Part shown: piece by piece, positions 1 to 9,000 of the stretch
How the letters are laid out: each line of letters begins with the position of its first letter
How positions within the stretch are numbered: the first letter of the stretch is position 1
DNA from: Saccostrea cucullata
Taxonomy: Eukaryota
Assembly: GCF_032062105.1 (NCBI RefSeq)
Contig: NW_026941489.1
Span: 62,001 to 126,000, forward strand
DNA length: 64,000 bases
Direction: 5' to 3'
Made by a program: the position numbers

Positions 1-3000
1 CTCTATTATAAACGGGAAGACTTCAGCTTTATCGTCGTAAACTTCTGTAATATTATATGCAATTGTATTCTTCTGTTAAGTGTTTGTATCTCTAACTTCA
101 TTCATACTCAAGAGAACGACTATTTTTTAAACCGAGGAAAAGTACTGACTAATAAGTTATAAAATCTCGGAAAAAGTCGAAATTTTGAACGTTTTAAAAT
201 CTTGAAAAGAAACAATCTCAGTTTCGCCATATTTTCAGTTTACATTTGTAGTTATTTGTTGGATATAATTTAATACTTTTCATATCTGCTCTGTATAAAA
301 CCAATGGCGAGCGTGACCAGTCAATAGTATGTACATTTATTGACTGGGTTCGAGAGCAGCATGCGTTTTGACTTCAACCAAACAGTTTGGTTCGAGAGGT
401 CGACAAAACGCATTTTGCCATGGAACAAAGATAATAAATGTTTTGTTATAGCTTTTACTATTTATTTTGAAATATTAGAATTTAAATTTTGTTTACCTGC
501 TGCATTGAAGTTCTGTCGAACTCCAACGAATGGAAAGAAGTTAAAGTTGTCCCGCCCACCCTGTGACGTAAGCGGCCGAACATCTCATCAACTGGTCAAA
601 CATGTCACTTTGCGGCCAAACATTGAATTCTATGCCCTCTCAGTAAAACATTGGAAATGACTTTTTTTGCATACAATTTTATAGGACACAATTTTTAGTG
701 GTATAACAGAAATACTTAGTCCATTTATGAACTTGTCCTGTTCATAATTTTTCATGTTTTTATAATAATCATAGGATCGACTTTTTTATTATTGCCTTTA
801 TTGATTGTTTGGTGATTTTTTTCTATTTGATGATTACTTTTGAGCATGTGTTTTATTTTTTTTATTTTCAGAAATAAATGAGATTCATAAAGTCGAAGAC
901 TACGTTGAAAAACTTAAGACGTCAAAACCACATCAAAGAACAGATATAATAAAATTAATACAGACCGAATTGTTGCCCCACTTAAAAGCTAATGACGACA
1001 TACGGAATCTGTCCACTTTACTTACATGTGGTGATGAGGACATACAATCCATAACGCTAAAATCCCTGAAGTCAATTTTATTGACGCTAGAAATCGGTAT
1101 GGTTGAAATACAATCTTTGGAAAGTTGCTTACAAAACATATTAGTGTTGATGATGTCAGATGAAACATCCCAAGTTTTGTGGTTTTCTATATGTCCAGTT
1201 GTTTTGCGTGTTATAGCATTTGTTTCCATACAGTTTTGTTATGTAAAATCAGAGAGGAAAAAGACGTCTGAAATAATGTCCCCAATAGTAGCCCATTTAA
1301 AGGACTACGCTGAAAAACTAACAAAGCATTGGCATAAGGAAAATACGAAGGTCCACAAAACTATTCATTGTATTGTGCATTTTCTTTCAAAATTTGAAAA
1401 ATTTAAAATGAGTGAAACTCTCATAAAAATTCTTGGAAATTGGGAAGATGCATTTTCAACAAAAGACAGTGACAAGGATTTGGCAAAGCTAAGGATACAC
1501 GAGCAATACATTTTCGCATTTGGATTGATCTCAAAGGTATAATTTTAATGCATTTTAACTGTCTCAATAAAAGCTACATGTACATGTATGTCAAAATTGC
1601 AACAATGAGTAACTTTACTCTTCAAAAGAACCATGGTAAGTAAATAAAACACTATCCTGTGCCAGTCATGGATCAGTTATTTGCATTCAAGACTTAGTCG
1701 AAGTTAATTGCTATTCTTGGGGGAGTGAGCGGAAGAGGAGCAAGTTAGCAAATAATGTAATGTTGTTGTTGTTTATTGAAATGCATAATAAGACGGAGAC
1801 AGTAGAATGAGAAGGAGATTGAGTATTTAACAACATTGTAAAAGTAATACTGTAAAATAACATATTTTCAAGGGCTCAATATGCCCAACTAAAGAAACAT
1901 GTTTAATAAAGTAGAAATGGTTCTACGATTAATAAATTAAAAGCTTGAAAGATTATTAAAAATATCAGTAGCTAATCGCAGTTTTTATTAAATTGTTTTA
2001 TTGGTATTTAGATGGCGAGAAGTCCATCGTTGTTTCGCTGCAACTTTATACAGTTTCTTCGAGCAACATACTGTTGTCCTCATCGTCTTGTGGAGAGGAA
2101 GTGGCATGAAGAGTTATTTCATTCTCTTACAGAACTACTCCTTACTGGAGTAGCCGACGTCTTTAACAAAGGTTTTATCTTAGTCTTTAAAGATTTATAT
2201 TTTGTTTACAATTTTGGAAAATTTGAACTGGTTATCTTTTGATATATACACTTAACAAAACTTCTAAGTGTTCATTTTAATAAATGTATTATTTATTGGA
2301 AAAAAACTTAATAGAATGGTATGAAATTTTCAAATTATTACAACAAATGAGTCTTCTCAACAATTATAGAAAGAAAACCAAATATCACCGATGAAAACCA
2401 ATGTTCCGTGACGAACCTTAAAAACAATAAATCTGTACTTCGCGGCACGTGTTTTGTTTAATTAGCATCTTTTTGTGATCATTATCAAATTTTAAAAAAC
2501 TGGTTTCACAAAAAAACACACAAAACATTGGCAAAATGACCATTGAGATAGAAGGGAAAGCCGTTGGAATGTTGATATCTGGACCATATTTGCACCACTT
2601 TTTACTCACTTTTATTTTAGTGTTTAATTGTCCTTGACATTACTTTTAAGAATTAACAACCATTATCAAAACCCATATAAACACATTTTTCTATAAGCTG
2701 TGCGTCATTTTCATCGCCAATTTATCACAATTTGAGAGCTTTGGACAAAATTTAACCAAACCGGAAGTGACCTTGATCTTCTTCTGAGGCCAAAATTTTG
2801 CGTCACATGAGGTTAAAAGAGTGTTAAATTATTCTGAAGCAATCTTAGAAACATGAAAACAAACAATTTTAATCATATGAAAATGATAAGAAATCCGTGC
2901 TCATGACAGTCAAATATCAGCTCAAGCAGTCTGAATCATCATTAAAGCGGTGCACTTACGAGCTAAACGCCCAAGGATATTGACCAAAAGGCCTCTGTGT

Positions 3001-6000: not shown

Positions 6001-9000
6001 AATAAACTTATTTAATTTAAGTATTGTAAGTTTTTTCATTTTGTAAAATTGTAAAATAATAGATAATTTTACATATGTCCATTGTCAGTGCACTATTTTC
6101 TCCTGCTTTTCAACAACAATTTTTCACTGCACTGCTATTCAATTTTATGAGATAAAAAGTTTCATTTTAATATATATATGCATCATGTTTTATGAGATTA
6201 GAAGAATTTGAGACCTGTTACAAAACTTTGAGGTCAAGTATCTACGGCAGAAACAAATCTTTGGAGTTCAATTTGCGAAAAGAAGACCTTGAGTCGAGAG
6301 AAGAATTTAAAATAACAAATGAGGTTAATTTTGTCTGAAACCCCTTTTCCAAAATATTGAAATGATTTGAATAAAATTATTCTTATAACACCATTAACAT
6401 TTATTTATTTATTAATAGATAAATTGCATCATTGTTGAAGAACTAGTATCTGATACCTTTTTTAATCTAATGTTACCAAAATTAAGTGGAACGTTGGCTG
6501 AAAATTTGGGTTTAAAAGAATGTGCAGTAAAGAAAATTCGACGATGTTCATCAAGCACAGATGCAAAAATGATCATCGTAAGACGTTTTATTTTTATTCT
6601 CTATTTCATTTAGAATTGCATATCGATCAAATATGCTCAAATCTCTATGTTTTTATTGTTTATTTTTTATATATACATGTATATTTTAAAATTCTTTGTT
6701 CATTTTGTATTGCTTTTCTTTTCTCTACCATAGTTAAATGTTATCAAACATATCAAACATCAATATATGTTTGGCATTATTAGAAAGTATGAAAAAGAGC
6801 ATTAATACATACAGACTTGGGAAGTCTACTTTATAGCTAGCAATATAATTTTTGTTTCAGCAATATACGTTTCCGTCAAGTTCCAACATTTTGTGTATAG
6901 CTGAAGAAATGTCAAAGAATTCAAAAGAGGAAAACGTAAACACTCTTTTGCGATTTTTATTTGCTGTTGTCAAGCATGTGAAACAAATCCACAGCAGGAA
7001 GTGGTTGATGGTAGACTTGATTGGCAAATATGTTTTTATTATTGACAAGCAAGAAATGCCAAAGGTATTTCAAAATTGTAATAGTACTACTAAAAGCACT
7101 AGTCAGCAATAATTTTTGTGAAAGAGAACAATTATATTAGATTAGTTTCCATGTATTTCTTGCTTTGATTTCTACTTCAGTAATATGGAATTTTTTTTTA
7201 TTTTTGAGTTTAGGCACTTATGATTAGAATTGGTAGGATGCAAAGCTTGCCACAAGAATGTAATATCCAAGAATATAGCATTATAGTCAATCAGGATCTA
7301 CAAGATATGCTTTATTGGTAAAACTGACCTCTTTCTGCTCCTAAGAATTGATAAAAAAACTTAATCTTAACTGAAAAAAAATTCCGTACTTTTTTAACAT
7401 AAATCAATGTCATTGGAGTTAACTGAAGCAAAAGGCAATATTTCCTGAATCACTTGTCAACGTAAAATTAAGTAAAGCATTCATAAGTGATTTTTAAGGC
7501 TTCCCAAGGAAGTAATCGGGCACAACGAACTATCGTGTGGCAGTGATGTTTACACAATGGCAATGCTTTTCTATGAAGTTTTTTCCGTCCTCTCTGGTCG
7601 TGAACGTCTAGATTGTGTGCCATTTGGGAACAAACACAAATCCAAGGCAAGTGTAACAGATTCATATCTCAATAACTAGTACAGAAATTTAAAACTTCCG
7701 GATAGTCCACATTTATCTCCCTTGTAAAGACTTAATTATAATTACCGACCTCCCCTTATTTGTTAAATCATATGTCAACGTTTTTTCAATGTCTTAAAAC
7801 AATTCGTCTCAAAGTGTTTTATTAACTTTTGATATATTTTGGGATTAAATATTTCAAGGTACCATATGATTCGTACGTTCATCATCTATAGAAAATGCTC
7901 ATACATGAAAAATTCTTGTCTAACATATAAATGTTTGATATGCAGCTGTTAGAACATTTGAATGAGGGACAGGTTCCCGAAAAACCGGATCTATGTCCAA
8001 GCTGGTTGTATGATGAAGTAATGTTAAAATGCTGGGACCTCGACAGAACATGTCGTCCACATGTTGATGAGATAATTTCCTTATTTTCGAGCAAGTAAGT
8101 CGACAAAAAATAGCGATTTAAAATGATTTATGATTTTGAGAAAAATTTGATTATCATAAAAATTTCACTATAGAAGAAACTGCTTTACCATTTAAGGTTA
8201 GATTTATCTGATGCCCCATTGTCCTCGGCATCAGGGTCTATCAGCAGCTACAAGGGATTTGATGAGAGTAATTCAAACAGGGGTGATGGATACTTGGACG
8301 TAACACATTCCTCGGATAGTCCCCACACTCACAATGACTATCACAACCCACTAGAGGATGAGGAGGAACATTATGATCTCATCGATGAAAATCTTCTCCA
8401 AACTGTACATTTATAAGTCGTCAATTTTTACGAGAAAAAGAGATAAGGAAATTGTGAATGCGCAAATTAAACGTCGACGTAATGTGTTTTCCTTACATAT
8501 GTTGGTTTTTATTGAAAAAGAGAAGCAAGTGACACAATTGATAATCGTTTGAATTTATGATATTAATTGCGTTTTCATTTAAAATATCTTTGATGCATAT
8601 TCTGTATGTGTTTGTTTCCTTTACTTAATATTTATGATTTTGATGAGTATCCTAATTTTGTTTGTTTTGTTTTCAAATTCTTTCAAAATTTGAGGAGTGT
8701 TATGAAAGCAAAATATTTTTCTCAGGAATTAGACTATATGATTTTTTTAAAGTATACATGTTTTTTTTTGTTTTTTTTGTTTTTTTGCTTTTTTTTTAAT
8801 ATGTTTAATACACCGAATTCTATTAAATACTTTAAAAGAGAAAATATCATGCATCAATAGATTCAAGGCTTTTTTTATCATTAAAATTTTTTTCTCATTA
8901 GAATTTTATTATAATTTTTCAGTGTACATTCTTTTTTTAAATTAAAGAAAACATAAAAACATATCCGAATTGACCAGTACTAAATCACAAATGACAATGA

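What the first reader, a model, noticed from the sequence alone, without database searches (positions are those of the whole stretch)
872..8416. Tandem double pseudokinase of tyrosine-kinase ancestry with a helical N-terminal region
Seen: two kinase-fold domains in one protein of roughly 1,000-1,100 aa. Domain 1 keeps HRD, PIRWSAPE and DVW but has no Gly-loop, no beta3 Lys (ISILIP), HSF in place of the catalytic-loop Asn and KLE in place of DFG. Domain 2 keeps the beta3 Lys (CAVKK) but has MVD for HRD, RIG for DFG and LPKE for APE. Established: JAKs pair a pseudokinase with an active kinase behind FERM-SH2, MLKL pairs a helical bundle with one pseudokinase, and plant tandem kinase proteins act as immune sensors. 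Inference: helical region plus two dead TK domains matches no animal family I recognise and may be a scaffold, decoy or switch.
Basis: partly seen in the sequence, partly recalled or inferred. Interest (0 to 1): 0.75.

Follow-up and report, generated by a model that had tools for sequence, protein, structure and literature searches.

The report
Gene for two dead kinase domains
An animal-type gene encodes a large protein with two tyrosine-kinase-like domains that have both lost residues needed for catalysis, so it probably works as a docking scaffold rather than an enzyme; whether it is a new family could not be checked.

Summary
The observation largely holds. On the + strand, 872-8416 carries 12 exons. 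All have AG/GT borders, continuous phases and no internal stop, giving about 1,044 codons. Every exon is GC-richer than its flanking introns. The 5' end is missing, because E1 enters in phase 1.

Domain 1 (E3-E5) is a clear tyrosine-kinase-type domain: Pfam PF07714 scores 27 and 55 bits, and 60 of the 60 listed PDB hits for E4 are tyrosine kinases.

Domain 2 (E7-E11) is verified only in its C-lobe: E11 scores 27.4 bits, and 60 of 60 listed PDB hits are tyrosine kinases. E7-E9 match no kinase in any search, and the N-lobe is too short for a normal alpha-C helix.

Both domains lack the catalytic-loop Asn and the DFG Asp.

The N-terminal ~380 aa has no family. Weak hints point to a HEAT/ARM-like helical fold. 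It also holds one very hydrophobic segment.

Best reading: a non-catalytic scaffold. Exons were searched one by one and never joined. The protein databases were closed, so orthology and novelty stay unchecked.

The parts
872..1536 (+). Exon E1 (221 full codons; enters in phase 1, so at least one coding exon lies upstream). First part of the N-terminal region.
   Evidence: AG acceptor and GT donor, no stop. No Pfam family and no PDB relative. The single-sequence AF2 model is all-helical with 11 helices, pLDDT 61 and pTM 0.52. Foldseek found 0 matches at E<=0.001 among at least 500 with E<=10; the best is 0.03, and of the 44 rows printed most are helical-repeat (alphaRep/ARM/HEAT-type) proteins. 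Atlas nearest clusters are HEAT-type families at 0.93-0.95, but recognition is 1701, below 2300.
1174..1245 (+). Strongly hydrophobic 24-residue segment in E1, followed by the basic stretch KSERKK (1246-1263). It is either a candidate membrane-spanning helix or a buried core element.
   Evidence: The Kyte-Doolittle 19-residue mean is 2.28, the highest of any exon (next highest 1.42). It contains a central Pro and Arg, so the call is ambiguous. No transmembrane predictor was available.
2012..2171 (+). Exon E2 (53 codons + 1 base). It links E1 (leaves in phase 0) to E3 (enters in phase 1).
   Evidence: AG/GT borders, GC 0.431 against 0.30-0.33 in the flanking introns. No Pfam hit. Skipping E2 and using an AG at 3412-3413 would also keep the frame, but that site has a poor pyrimidine tract (read).
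3454..4308 (+). Exon E3 (284 codons). The first ~105 residues end the N-terminal region. The rest is domain 1 from the N-lobe through the DFG-equivalent.
   Evidence: Pfam PF07714 scores 25.0-27.0 bits (E 1.4e-5 / 3.3e-6), profile positions 46-131 of 258. The best PDB hit is at E 4e-4, aligning alpha-E and HRD. Atlas nearest clusters are protein-kinase clusters at 0.95-0.97, recognition 2811. The N-terminal half has no Pfam or PDB relative.
3807..3878 (+).
   Evidence: Direct reading. No tool aligned this part, since the Pfam match starts at profile position 46.
4179..4262 (+). Domain 1 catalytic loop HRDITLHSF (4179-4205: Asp kept, Asn lost) and KLE in place of DFG (4254-4262).
   Evidence: Direct reading. 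HRD is aligned to the HRD/HKD of solved kinases.
4801..4979 (+). Exon E4: domain 1 P+1 loop PIRWSAPE (4821-4844), DVWMFG (4878-4895), and alpha-F.
   Evidence: Pfam PF07714 scores 55.1 bits, E 9.3e-15, profile positions 164-217. In PDB, 1,010 sequences match at E<=1, and the 60 listed are all tyrosine kinases (EphA2 2e-11, ROR2, Fes, TrkA, MuSK, ABL1 and others).
5088..5253 (+). Exon E5: domain 1 alpha-H/alpha-I (CYDIHPEKRP, 5160-5189) and the start of the linker.
   Evidence: PDB returned only LIMK1 (3 sequences, E 0.023), aligned at the homologous C-terminal helices. No kinase hit in Pfam. Smith-Waterman against E11 gives z 2.0, with 24 of 500 shuffles reaching the score.
6202..6323 (+). Exon E6: inter-domain linker. 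An in-frame ATG at 6192-6194 just upstream is the alternative start if domain 2 were a separate transcript.
   Evidence: AG/GT borders, and the entry phase matches the exit phase of E5. No Pfam hit. The ATG was read.
6419..6577 (+). Exon E7: putative domain 2 N-lobe, with a Gly-less loop LVSDTFFNL (6443-6469) and CAVKK (6521-6535).
   Evidence: Motifs by direct reading only. No kinase match in Pfam or PDB.
6861..7064 (+). Exon E8: putative hinge LCIAEEM (6891-6911) and catalytic loop MVDLIGKY (7008-7031: Asp kept, Asn lost).
   Evidence: Direct reading. No kinase match in Pfam or PDB. About 29 residues separate the CAVKK Lys from the hinge, too few for a normal alpha-C plus beta-4 (count). No convincing frame-keeping exon lies in intron 7: the 2 AG..GT candidates are low-complexity with poor donors.
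7214..7317 (+). Exon E9: RIG in place of DFG (7226-7234) and the activation segment.
   Evidence: Direct reading. No match in Pfam or PDB. The distance from MVD to LPKE is 58 residues, the same as from HRD to APE in domain 1 (count).
7499..7652 (+). Exon E10: LPKE in place of APE (7500-7511), DVYTMA (7545-7562), and alpha-F.
   Evidence: Pfam PF07714 is below cut-off (12.3-12.6 bits, E 0.084-0.1), at profile positions 172-200, the collinear place. Smith-Waterman against E4 gives z 3.0, with 5 of 500 shuffles reaching the score, aligned at the homologous motif. PDB gave only E 0.95.
7946..8094 (+). Exon E11: domain 2 alpha-G to alpha-I (KPDLCP, then CWDLDRTCRP at 8030-8059).
   Evidence: Pfam PF07714 scores 27.4 bits, E 2.6e-6, profile positions 211-256. 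In PDB, 485 sequences match at E<=1, and the 60 listed are all tyrosine kinases (PYK2 1.8e-5, EphA5, ErbB2, MET, TrkC).
8197..8416 (+). Exon E12: 72-residue acidic Ser/Tyr-rich tail and the TAA stop (8414-8416). Tyrosines occur in YKGF, YLDV, YHNP and YDLI.
   Evidence: Net charge -14, with 12 Ser and 4 Tyr. Coordinates. No Pfam family.

Best explanation
One multi-exon animal-type gene encodes a protein of at least 1,044 residues. Its parts, in order:
- an N-terminal region of about 380 residues that belongs to no known family and is probably helical;
- a complete tyrosine-kinase-type domain whose active site is crippled;
- a linker of about 55 residues;
- a second, more eroded kinase-like domain, with a recognisable C-lobe and a shortened N-lobe;
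- an acidic Ser/Tyr-rich tail.

Shown: the exon structure, the kinase homology of domain 1 and of the domain 2 C-lobe, and the absence in both domains of the two metal-binding residues (catalytic-loop Asn and DFG Asp).

Inferred: neither domain transfers phosphate, and the protein works as a non-catalytic scaffold or adaptor in phosphotyrosine signalling. The kinase-fold surfaces would bind partners; the best-preserved parts are the P+1 loop and alpha-F to alpha-I. The N-terminal region would also bind partners. The four tail tyrosines would become docking sites once an active tyrosine kinase phosphorylates them.
For: - Gene model: 12 of 12 exons have AG/GT borders, continuous phases and no internal stop. 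Exon GC is 0.379 against 0.289 in introns, and P(open by chance) is about 1e-33 for all codons.
- Domain 1: PF07714 scores 27.0 and 55.1 bits against a cut-off of 23.1. For E4, 60 of the 60 listed PDB hits are tyrosine kinases. Atlas gives kinase clusters at 0.95-0.97.
- Domain 2 C-lobe: PF07714 scores 27.4 bits, and 60 of the 60 listed PDB hits are tyrosine kinases. E4-E10 gives z 3.0 (5 of 500 shuffles) and E5-E11 gives z 2.0 (24 of 500).
- Active-site loss, read directly: HRDITLHSF and KLE in domain 1; MVDLIGKY and RIG in domain 2.
- The open frame is kept over all exons, which argues for a maintained gene rather than decay.
- The tail has net charge -14 and 4 Tyr.
- Scaffold or hub roles are among the documented pseudokinase roles (review PMC13519141, passages seen).
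Against: - There is no expression data and no orthologue. The protein databases were closed, so conservation and selection are untested.
- E7, E8 and E9 match no kinase in Pfam or PDB. Domain 2 may be only a C-lobe remnant.
- Domain 1 may keep a beta-3 Lys (3876-3878) and the HRD Asp, so metal-independent nucleotide binding is not excluded.
- The tail motifs are short and could be chance.
- The 5' end is missing: 11 ATG..GT candidates lie upstream and none has a strong donor.
- A hydrophobic segment (Kyte-Doolittle 2.28) may make the protein membrane-bound, which would change the picture.
- Whole-domain searches and folds were not done, because the exons were not joined.
Confidence: 0.5

Rival explanations
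1. It is a degenerate member of a described family with a pseudokinase-kinase tandem, most plausibly JAK-like. On this reading the N-terminal region is an unrecognisably diverged FERM-SH2 module and the second domain has secondarily died.
For: - The domain order (two tyrosine-kinase-type domains in tandem near the C-terminus) matches JAK.
- The in-window N-terminal length of about 380 aa, plus missing upstream exons, fits the FERM-SH2 length of JAKs as I recall it.
- TYK2 JH2-JH1 (4oli) ranks fourth of 172 hits for E3, at E 0.026.
- Domain 2 has an aromatic residue before the conserved Trp (YW) and YE in alpha-F. As I recall, these resemble JAK JH1 features.
Against: - No FERM or SH2 family is found in E1, E2 or E3, and no FERM or SH2 structure appears among PDB hits for E1 or the E3 N-half.
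- No JAK is among the 60 listed hits for E4 or for E11.
- The E1 model is all-helical and resembles solenoids, not FERM, though the model is weak.
- Domain 2 is dead and is followed by a 72-aa tail, unlike JAKs (recalled).
Confidence: 0.13
2. These are two genes or transcripts. One encodes the N-terminal region plus domain 1 (E1-E5). The other starts at the in-frame ATG at 6192 and encodes the linker, domain 2 and the tail.
For: - An in-frame ATG lies 10 nt upstream of the E6 acceptor.
- Intron 5 is long, at 948 nt.
- There are no RNA data.
- The two domains are not detectably similar to each other by tblastn.
Against: - The exit phase of E5 (1) matches the entry phase of the E6 AG acceptor, a 1-in-3 coincidence.
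- E5 ends at a strong GTAAGT donor.
- Reading through that donor adds about 50 residues with no recognisable feature before a stop at 5406-5408.
Confidence: 0.12
3. It is a membrane-anchored, receptor-like tandem pseudokinase. The hydrophobic segment 1174-1245 spans the membrane, the upstream part faces outward, and the two dead domains sit in the cytoplasm, like the RTK pseudokinases PTK7, ROR and RYK.
For: - The Kyte-Doolittle 19-residue mean is 2.28, above the classical 1.6 threshold (recalled).
- The flanks are acidic on the N side and basic (KSERKK) on the C side, which fits the positive-inside rule (recalled).
- Many of the best PDB hits are receptor tyrosine kinases.
Against: - The segment has a central Pro and Arg and is rich in beta-branched residues.
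- The AF2 model packs it into a helical bundle.
- About 260 residues separate it from domain 1, much more than a usual juxtamembrane region.
- The putative ectodomain has no Cys-rich or Ig/EGF-like feature.
- No signal peptide is available to test, because the 5' end is missing.
Confidence: 0.12
4. It is an immune decoy or sensor, analogous to plant tandem kinase proteins. The dead kinase domains would mimic host tyrosine kinases targeted by pathogen factors, and binding would trigger a response through the N-terminal region.
For: - The architecture is analogous: tandem kinase-like domains plus an extra module.
- Plant tandem kinase proteins recognise effectors directly (search listings and abstract starts only; passages of PMC13519141).
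- Ig-superfamily receptor-like genes lie nearby.
Against: - No evidence from this window bears on immunity.
- There is no tandem paralogue expansion in the window.
- Plant tandem kinase proteins are said to carry an active kinase domain alongside the pseudokinase.
- Gene neighbourhood means little in animals.
Confidence: 0.06
5. It is a recently inactivated or unexpressed gene copy (a young pseudogene) whose frame happens still to be open.
For: - Domain 2 is heavily eroded.
- The region is rich in transposons.
- The first exon was not found.
Against: - About 1,044 codons over 12 exons have no stop or frameshift, and 12 of 12 splice-site pairs are intact.
- The GC contrast between exons and introns is retained.
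Confidence: 0.07

Closest known systems
Janus kinases (JAK1-3, TYK2, invertebrate Hopscotch)
   Same: Two tyrosine-kinase-type domains sit in tandem behind a long N-terminal region, and the first one is catalytically impaired. The tandem pseudokinase-kinase layout is described in PMC13519141 (passages).
   Different: Here the second domain is also dead (no Asn, RIG for DFG) and has a shortened N-lobe. No FERM or SH2 was detected. An acidic 72-aa tail follows. No JAK is among the listed best hits of E4 or E11.
Plant tandem kinase proteins (WTK/RWT4/Pm24 type)
   Same: Tandem kinase or pseudokinase domains in one cytoplasmic protein, sometimes with an integrated extra domain (search listings).
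   Different: Those are plant proteins, described as kinase-pseudokinase pairs. Here both domains are dead and of tyrosine-kinase type. No link to immunity is shown.
PEAK1/PEAK2/PEAK3 pseudokinase scaffolds
   Same: A dead kinase fold used as a hub, with flanking regions that recruit SH2/SH3 effectors (PMC13519141 passages). The proposed mode of action is the same.
   Different: PEAKs have a single pseudokinase domain flanked by SHED helices. No sequence relation was tested or seen here.
Receptor tyrosine pseudokinases (HER3, PTK7, ROR1/2, RYK)
   Same: Tyrosine-kinase-derived dead domains that act allosterically or as co-receptors. PTK7 and ROR1/2 are among the listed hits of E4.
   Different: Those have one kinase-like domain and defined ectodomains. 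Here a membrane span is only a possibility, and there are two domains.
Pseudokinases fused to ARM/HEAT repeats (ULK4, SCYL1-3; recalled)
   Same: A dead kinase fold combined with a helical repeat region as a protein-binding platform.
   Different: In those the repeats are C-terminal and the kinase is of Ser/Thr type (recalled). The HEAT/ARM assignment here is weak and was not met by Pfam.

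Membership tests
Protein kinase domain, Pfam PK_Tyr_Ser-Thr (PF07714) | Score at or above the gathering cut-off (23.1 bits), domain 1 | tested here: met
   E3 scores 25.0 bits as an ORF and 27.0 bits as the exact C-half. E4 scores 55.1 bits. Profile positions 46-131 and 164-217 are collinear.
Protein kinase domain, Pfam PK_Tyr_Ser-Thr (PF07714) | Score at or above the gathering cut-off, domain 2 | tested here: inconclusive
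   Only E11 passes (27.4 bits, profile 211-256). E10 scores 12.3-12.6 bits. E7, E8 and E9 have no hit. A whole-domain score was not obtainable because the exons were not joined.
Tyrosine kinase group | Subdomain VIII signature P-[IV]-[KR]-W-x-A-P-E (recalled consensus) | tested here: met
   Domain 1 has PIRWSAPE at 4821-4844. Domain 2 keeps only the Trp (YWLPKE).
Tyrosine kinase group | Catalytic loop HRDLAARN or HRDLRAAN (recalled consensus) | tested here: not met
   Domain 1 has HRDITLHS and domain 2 has MVDLIGKY.
Tyrosine kinase group | Nearest solved relatives are tyrosine kinases | tested here: met
   For E4, 60 of the 60 listed hits (1,010 matched) are tyrosine kinases; for E11, 60 of 60 listed (485 matched). 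E3 and E5 are not diagnostic: their hits are mixed Ser/Thr kinases and LIMK1.
Catalytically competent protein kinase | Beta-3 Lys, HRD Asp, catalytic-loop Asn and DFG Asp all present (recalled canon) | tested here: not met
   Domain 1: Asp present, Asn absent, DFG replaced by KLE, Lys uncertain (ISILIP or STLK). Domain 2: Lys (CAVKK) and Asp (MVD) present, Asn absent, DFG replaced by RIG. Tested by sequence only, with no assay.
JAK family | N-terminal FERM and SH2-like domains | tested here: not met
   No FERM or SH2 Pfam family in E1, E2 or E3 at E<=10, and no such structure among PDB hits. Caveats: these were exon-wise searches, and the 5' exons are missing.
JAK family | C-terminal domain is an active tyrosine kinase (JH1) | tested here: not met
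   Domain 2 lacks Asn and the DFG Asp and has a shortened N-lobe.
MLKL | N-terminal four-helix bundle plus brace, followed by one pseudokinase domain | tested here: not met
   There are two kinase-like domains, and at least 380 residues precede the first. The E1 model resembles solenoids, weakly. The bundle itself is not testable here.
Plant tandem kinase proteins | Tandem kinase or pseudokinase domains, one usually active, of plant receptor-like-kinase ancestry | tested here: not met
   The tandem layout is present, but both domains are dead and their nearest relatives are animal tyrosine kinases. This is an analogy only.
HEAT/ARM alpha-solenoid | Repeated helical hairpins recognised by profile or fold | tested here: inconclusive
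   Pfam gives no repeat family. Foldseek's best E is 0.03 with TM 0.2-0.39, and 0 matches reach E<=0.001. Atlas gives HEAT-type clusters at 0.93-0.95, but recognition is 1701 and only 127-148 of 256 features are shared.
Single-pass receptor pseudokinase | Signal peptide, ectodomain and a membrane-spanning helix before the kinase region | tested here: inconclusive
   One segment has a Kyte-Doolittle mean of 2.28 with a basic C-flank, but it contains a central Pro and Arg. The 5' end, and so any signal peptide, is missing. No transmembrane predictor was available.

The most novel reading that the evidence does not exclude
A previously undescribed animal protein family in which a helical-repeat N-terminus is followed by two dead tyrosine-kinase domains. 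It would act as a phosphotyrosine-pathway decoy or conformational switch, an animal counterpart of plant tandem kinase immune sensors. No catalytic domain would be left at all.
Probability: 0.1. Interest if true: 0.8.

Novelty: new variant of a known kind. Interest (0 to 1): 0.42.

Why it matters
In the passages and search listings I saw, tandem kinase-fold proteins are described as a pseudokinase next to a working kinase: JAK, GCN2 and plant tandem kinase proteins.

A protein with two dead tyrosine-kinase domains and no enzyme partner in cis would be different. It would show the kinase fold used purely as a double binding module. It would also give a natural system for asking what a pseudokinase-pseudokinase pair can do.

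If the gene is instead a diverged JAK-like gene, or one of the lineage-specific 'unique' tyrosine kinases that kinome surveys already report (PMC4883820, passages), it is an ordinary example of kinome turnover.

The present evidence cannot separate these two outcomes.

Tried and rejected
Structure and Atlas attempts:
- The single-sequence AF2 model of E3 had pLDDT 39 and predicted helices even over the kinase N-lobe. It is unusable, so no fold search was run on it.
Later calls were answered but gave only generic kinase or HEAT-type leads.

Paralogues and internal duplication:
- tblastn of each exon against the window found no hit below E 0.07 apart from self, so there is no paralogue here.
- Smith-Waterman with shuffles gave signal in only 2 of 14 exon pairs, E4-E10 and E5-E11. 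This shows no recent internal duplication.

Gene-model checks:
- A missing exon that could supply alpha-C to domain 2: intron 7 holds only 2 frame-keeping AG..GT candidates, both low-complexity with poor donors. A small open segment at 6734-6786 looks alpha-C/beta-4-like by eye, but it enters in phase 0 and leaves in phase 2. It cannot join E8, so it was rejected (read).
- A first coding exon in 1-871: 11 ATG..GT candidates, none with a strong donor.

Other strands and RNAs:
- Antisense ORFs 933-1238 and 4189-4599 and the upstream ORFs have no significant Pfam family (only FANCF at E 0.063, below cut-off).
- Rfam found 0 families and ARAGORN 0 tRNAs.

Literature:
- Six searches in all. The four that bore on the question (18, 32, 42, 52) listed no animal tandem double pseudokinase.
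- PMC7586955 held none of my six terms.
- PMC6997932, the pseudokinase survey, is not held.

Not attempted:
- Complex prediction was not used. Feeding the exons as separate chains would amount to the joined step that was to be left out.

Full report
**Scope and limits**

The window is AT-rich (GC 0.27-0.45 per 2 kb, mostly about 0.30-0.34) and contains no N. It carries animal-type transposons.

The joined step was left out, so there is no whole-domain or whole-protein HMM score, fold or phylogeny. Orthologues, copy number and taxonomic range therefore stay unchecked.

**Gene model**

Reading 1-8,700 and the stop-to-stop frames gave 12 exons on the + strand:

| Exon | Coordinates |
|---|---|
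| E1 | 872-1536 |
| E2 | 2012-2171 |
| E3 | 3454-4308 |
| E4 | 4801-4979 |
| E5 | 5088-5253 |
| E6 | 6202-6323 |
| E7 | 6419-6577 |
| E8 | 6861-7064 |
| E9 | 7214-7317 |
| E10 | 7499-7652 |
| E11 | 7946-8094 |
| E12 | 8197-8416 |

- All 12 have an AG acceptor. All 11 internal donors are GT. The phases are continuous, and the only stop is the terminal TAA.
- Exon GC is 0.379 against 0.289 for introns, and each exon is richer than its neighbouring introns.
- Introns carry 0.070 stops per codon. The open frames are therefore far beyond chance: 1e-7 for E1, 1e-9 for E3 and 9e-9 for E7-E11 together.
- E1 enters in phase 1, so at least one coding exon lies upstream. None of the 11 ATG..GT candidates in 1-871 has a strong donor, so the start is probably outside the window.
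- E2 is needed for the phase. Skipping it through a weak acceptor at 3412-3413 would also keep the frame.
- A frame-keeping candidate cassette exon exists in intron 5 (5361-5510) and cannot be judged without RNA.

**Domain 1**

- Pfam PK_Tyr_Ser-Thr matches E3 at 25.0 bits as an ORF and 27.0 bits as the exact C-half (profile positions 46-131). It matches E4 at 55.1 bits (E 9.3e-15, profile 164-217). The cut-off is 23.1 bits.
- Against PDB sequences, E4 matched 1,010 sequences at E<=1. The 60 listed are all tyrosine kinases: EphA2 at 2e-11, then ROR2, Fes, TrkA, MuSK, ABL1, PTK6 and PTK7.
- E3 gave only weak, mixed hits. The best is a CDPK at 4e-4, and TYK2 scores 0.026. The alignments cover alpha-E and HRD.
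- E5 matched only LIMK1 (3 sequences, E 0.023), at the last helices.
- The Atlas placed E3 among generic kinase clusters (0.95-0.97, recognition 2811).

**Domain 2**

- E11 matches PF07714 at 27.4 bits (E 2.6e-6, profile 211-256). It matched 485 PDB sequences, and the 60 listed are all tyrosine kinases: PYK2 at 1.8e-5, then EphA5, ErbB2, MET and TrkC.
- E10 is sub-threshold (12.3-12.6 bits, E 0.084-0.1) but sits at the collinear profile positions 172-200. PDB gave only E 0.95.
- E7, E8 and E9 match no kinase in Pfam or PDB.
- In Smith-Waterman tests with 500 shuffles, only 2 of 14 exon pairs stood out, both at homologous motifs. E4-E10 gave z 3.0 (5 of 500 shuffles reached the score), and E5-E11 gave z 2.0 (24 of 500).
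- So the C-lobe of domain 2 is kinase-derived. The N-lobe and catalytic-loop assignments (CAVKK, MVD, RIG) rest on reading and spacing. MVD to LPKE spans 58 residues, the same as HRD to APE in domain 1.
- Only about 29 residues lie between the CAVKK Lys and the hinge LCIAEEM. As I recall, canonical kinases have about 45-50 there. A normal alpha-C plus beta-4 is therefore missing.
- No convincing frame-compatible exon in intron 7 supplies the missing part: the 2 candidates are low-complexity with poor donors.

**Active sites (direct reading)**

| Feature | Domain 1 | Domain 2 |
|---|---|---|
| Gly-loop | ICGGRLYHF (degenerate) | LVSDTFFNL (no Gly) |
| Beta-3 Lys | uncertain: ISILIP or STLK | CAVKK (kept) |
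| Catalytic loop | HRDITLHSF (Asp kept, Asn lost) | MVDLIGKY (Asp kept, Asn lost) |
| DFG | KLE | RIG |
| APE region | PIRWSAPE, then DVWMFG | LPKE |

However, ISILIP lies only about 8 residues after the Gly-loop candidate ICGGRLYHF. The Lys of STLK (3876-3878) lies 16 residues after it, and 18-20 residues before the Glu candidates in NEFEILL. These distances are closer to canonical ones, as I recall them. No tool aligned this part, so the point is open.

Both domains lack both metal-binding residues. I therefore predict that neither is a phosphotransferase. Nucleotide binding without metal is not excluded for domain 1.

**N-terminal region and tail**

- E1, E2 and the first half of E3 (about 380 residues) have no Pfam family and no PDB relative.
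- The single-sequence AF2 model of E1 is all-helical with 11 helices, pLDDT 61 and pTM 0.52.
- Foldseek against PDB gave 0 matches at E<=0.001 among at least 500 with E<=10. The best is 0.03, and of the 44 rows printed most are alphaRep, ARM or HEAT-type helical-repeat proteins, with TM 0.2-0.39.
- The Atlas gave HEAT-type clusters (MMS19_N, HEATR5A, Neurochondrin) at 0.93-0.95. Recognition was only 1701 and 127-148 of 256 features were shared, which is weak.
- Together these are a lead for a helical-repeat fold, not a demonstration. A FERM-SH2 module is not excluded by fold.
- E1 also holds the most hydrophobic stretch of the protein (1174-1245, Kyte-Doolittle 2.28), followed by KSERKK. It may be a membrane span or a buried core element.
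- The tail (E12) has 72 residues, net charge -14, 12 Ser and 4 Tyr, in YKGF, YLDV, YHNP and YDLI. As I recall, YxN and YxxI/L are SH2-docking patterns, but short motifs like these can arise by chance.

**Surroundings**

- There is no paralogue of any exon elsewhere in the window.
- The antisense ORFs have no Pfam family, and the upstream ORFs have none above cut-off.
- No Rfam family or tRNA was found.
- Downstream lies an Ig I-set exon (24643-24960, E 1.7e-7). There are also two paralogous long exons (33% identity over 114 aa, E 3e-14).
- A non-LTR retrotransposon (endonuclease and RVT_1) is interrupted by a DDE_Tnp_4 element.

**How it most likely works**

What is shown: a maintained open gene, two tyrosine-kinase-derived modules and loss of the metal-binding residues.

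What is inferred: a non-catalytic scaffold. The parts preserved best are the P+1 loop and alpha-F to alpha-I. These are the surfaces kinases use for substrates and partners, while the nucleotide pocket has decayed. The tail offers phospho-dependent docking sites, and the N-terminal region offers another binding platform.

This fits the 'signalling hub' class of pseudokinases described in PMC13519141 (passages seen). I put it at 0.5.

Rivals are:
- a degenerate JAK-like gene (0.13);
- two transcripts (0.12);
- a membrane-anchored receptor-like form (0.12);
- a young pseudogene (0.07);
- an immune decoy like plant tandem kinase proteins (0.06).

**Comparison with what is known**

- In the passages I saw, tandem arrangements always pair a pseudokinase with an active kinase: JAKs, GCN2 and plant tandem kinase proteins.
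- I ran six literature searches. The four that bore on the question (18, 32, 42, 52) listed no animal protein with two dead tyrosine-kinase domains.
- The oyster kinome paper mentions 5 'TK-unique' and 28 ambiguous kinases (PMC4883820, passages). Its supplementary table could not be opened.
- The holozoan tyrosine-kinome paper keeps an 'unclassified' bin (PMC8662651, passages).
- The pseudokinase survey PMC6997932 is not held.
- Absence from print is therefore only weakly supported.

**Verdict**

Interest is 0.42.

Noticed in passing
window 27420-35114 (+), with 31703-33028 (-): A non-LTR retrotransposon (Exo_endo_phos E 2.1e-13; RVT_1 E 1.1e-22). A PIF/Harbinger-type DDE_Tnp_4 transposase ORF of 441 aa (E 1.4e-32) lies on the opposite strand within its span. 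This coincides with the GC-rich stretch at 30-34 kb.
   Followed up: partly
window 20180-20815, 24643-24960, 36267-37046 (+): Two paralogous long exons (33% identity over 114 aa, E 3e-14) are rich in acidic residues and Tyr motifs. An Ig I-set exon (E 1.7e-7) lies between them. They are probably two tandem Ig-superfamily receptor-like genes downstream of the pseudokinase gene.
   Followed up: partly
window 1-162 and 55330-55662 (+): Two related ORF fragments (36% identity over 59 aa, E 3e-7) with no Pfam family. They are probably copies of a dispersed repeat, one of which sits at the very start of the window, upstream of E1.
   Followed up: partly
window 3006-3179 (+), inside intron 2: An open frame containing DLNPIEHIW, which I recall as typical of Tc1/mariner transposases. 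Pfam gave no family at E<=0.01, so this is unconfirmed.
   Followed up: partly
window 5361-5510 (+), inside intron 5: A 150-nt AG..GT segment that would keep the reading frame if included in the inter-domain linker. Its acceptor is weak. It cannot be judged without RNA data.
   Followed up: no
window 6734-6786 (+), inside intron 7: A short open segment that by eye resembles a kinase alpha-C/beta-4 stretch. It lies exactly where domain 2 lacks one, but its phases (0 in, 2 out) do not fit E8. It may be the relic of a lost exon (read; not among the 2 frame-keeping candidates that one search listed for intron 7).
   Followed up: partly
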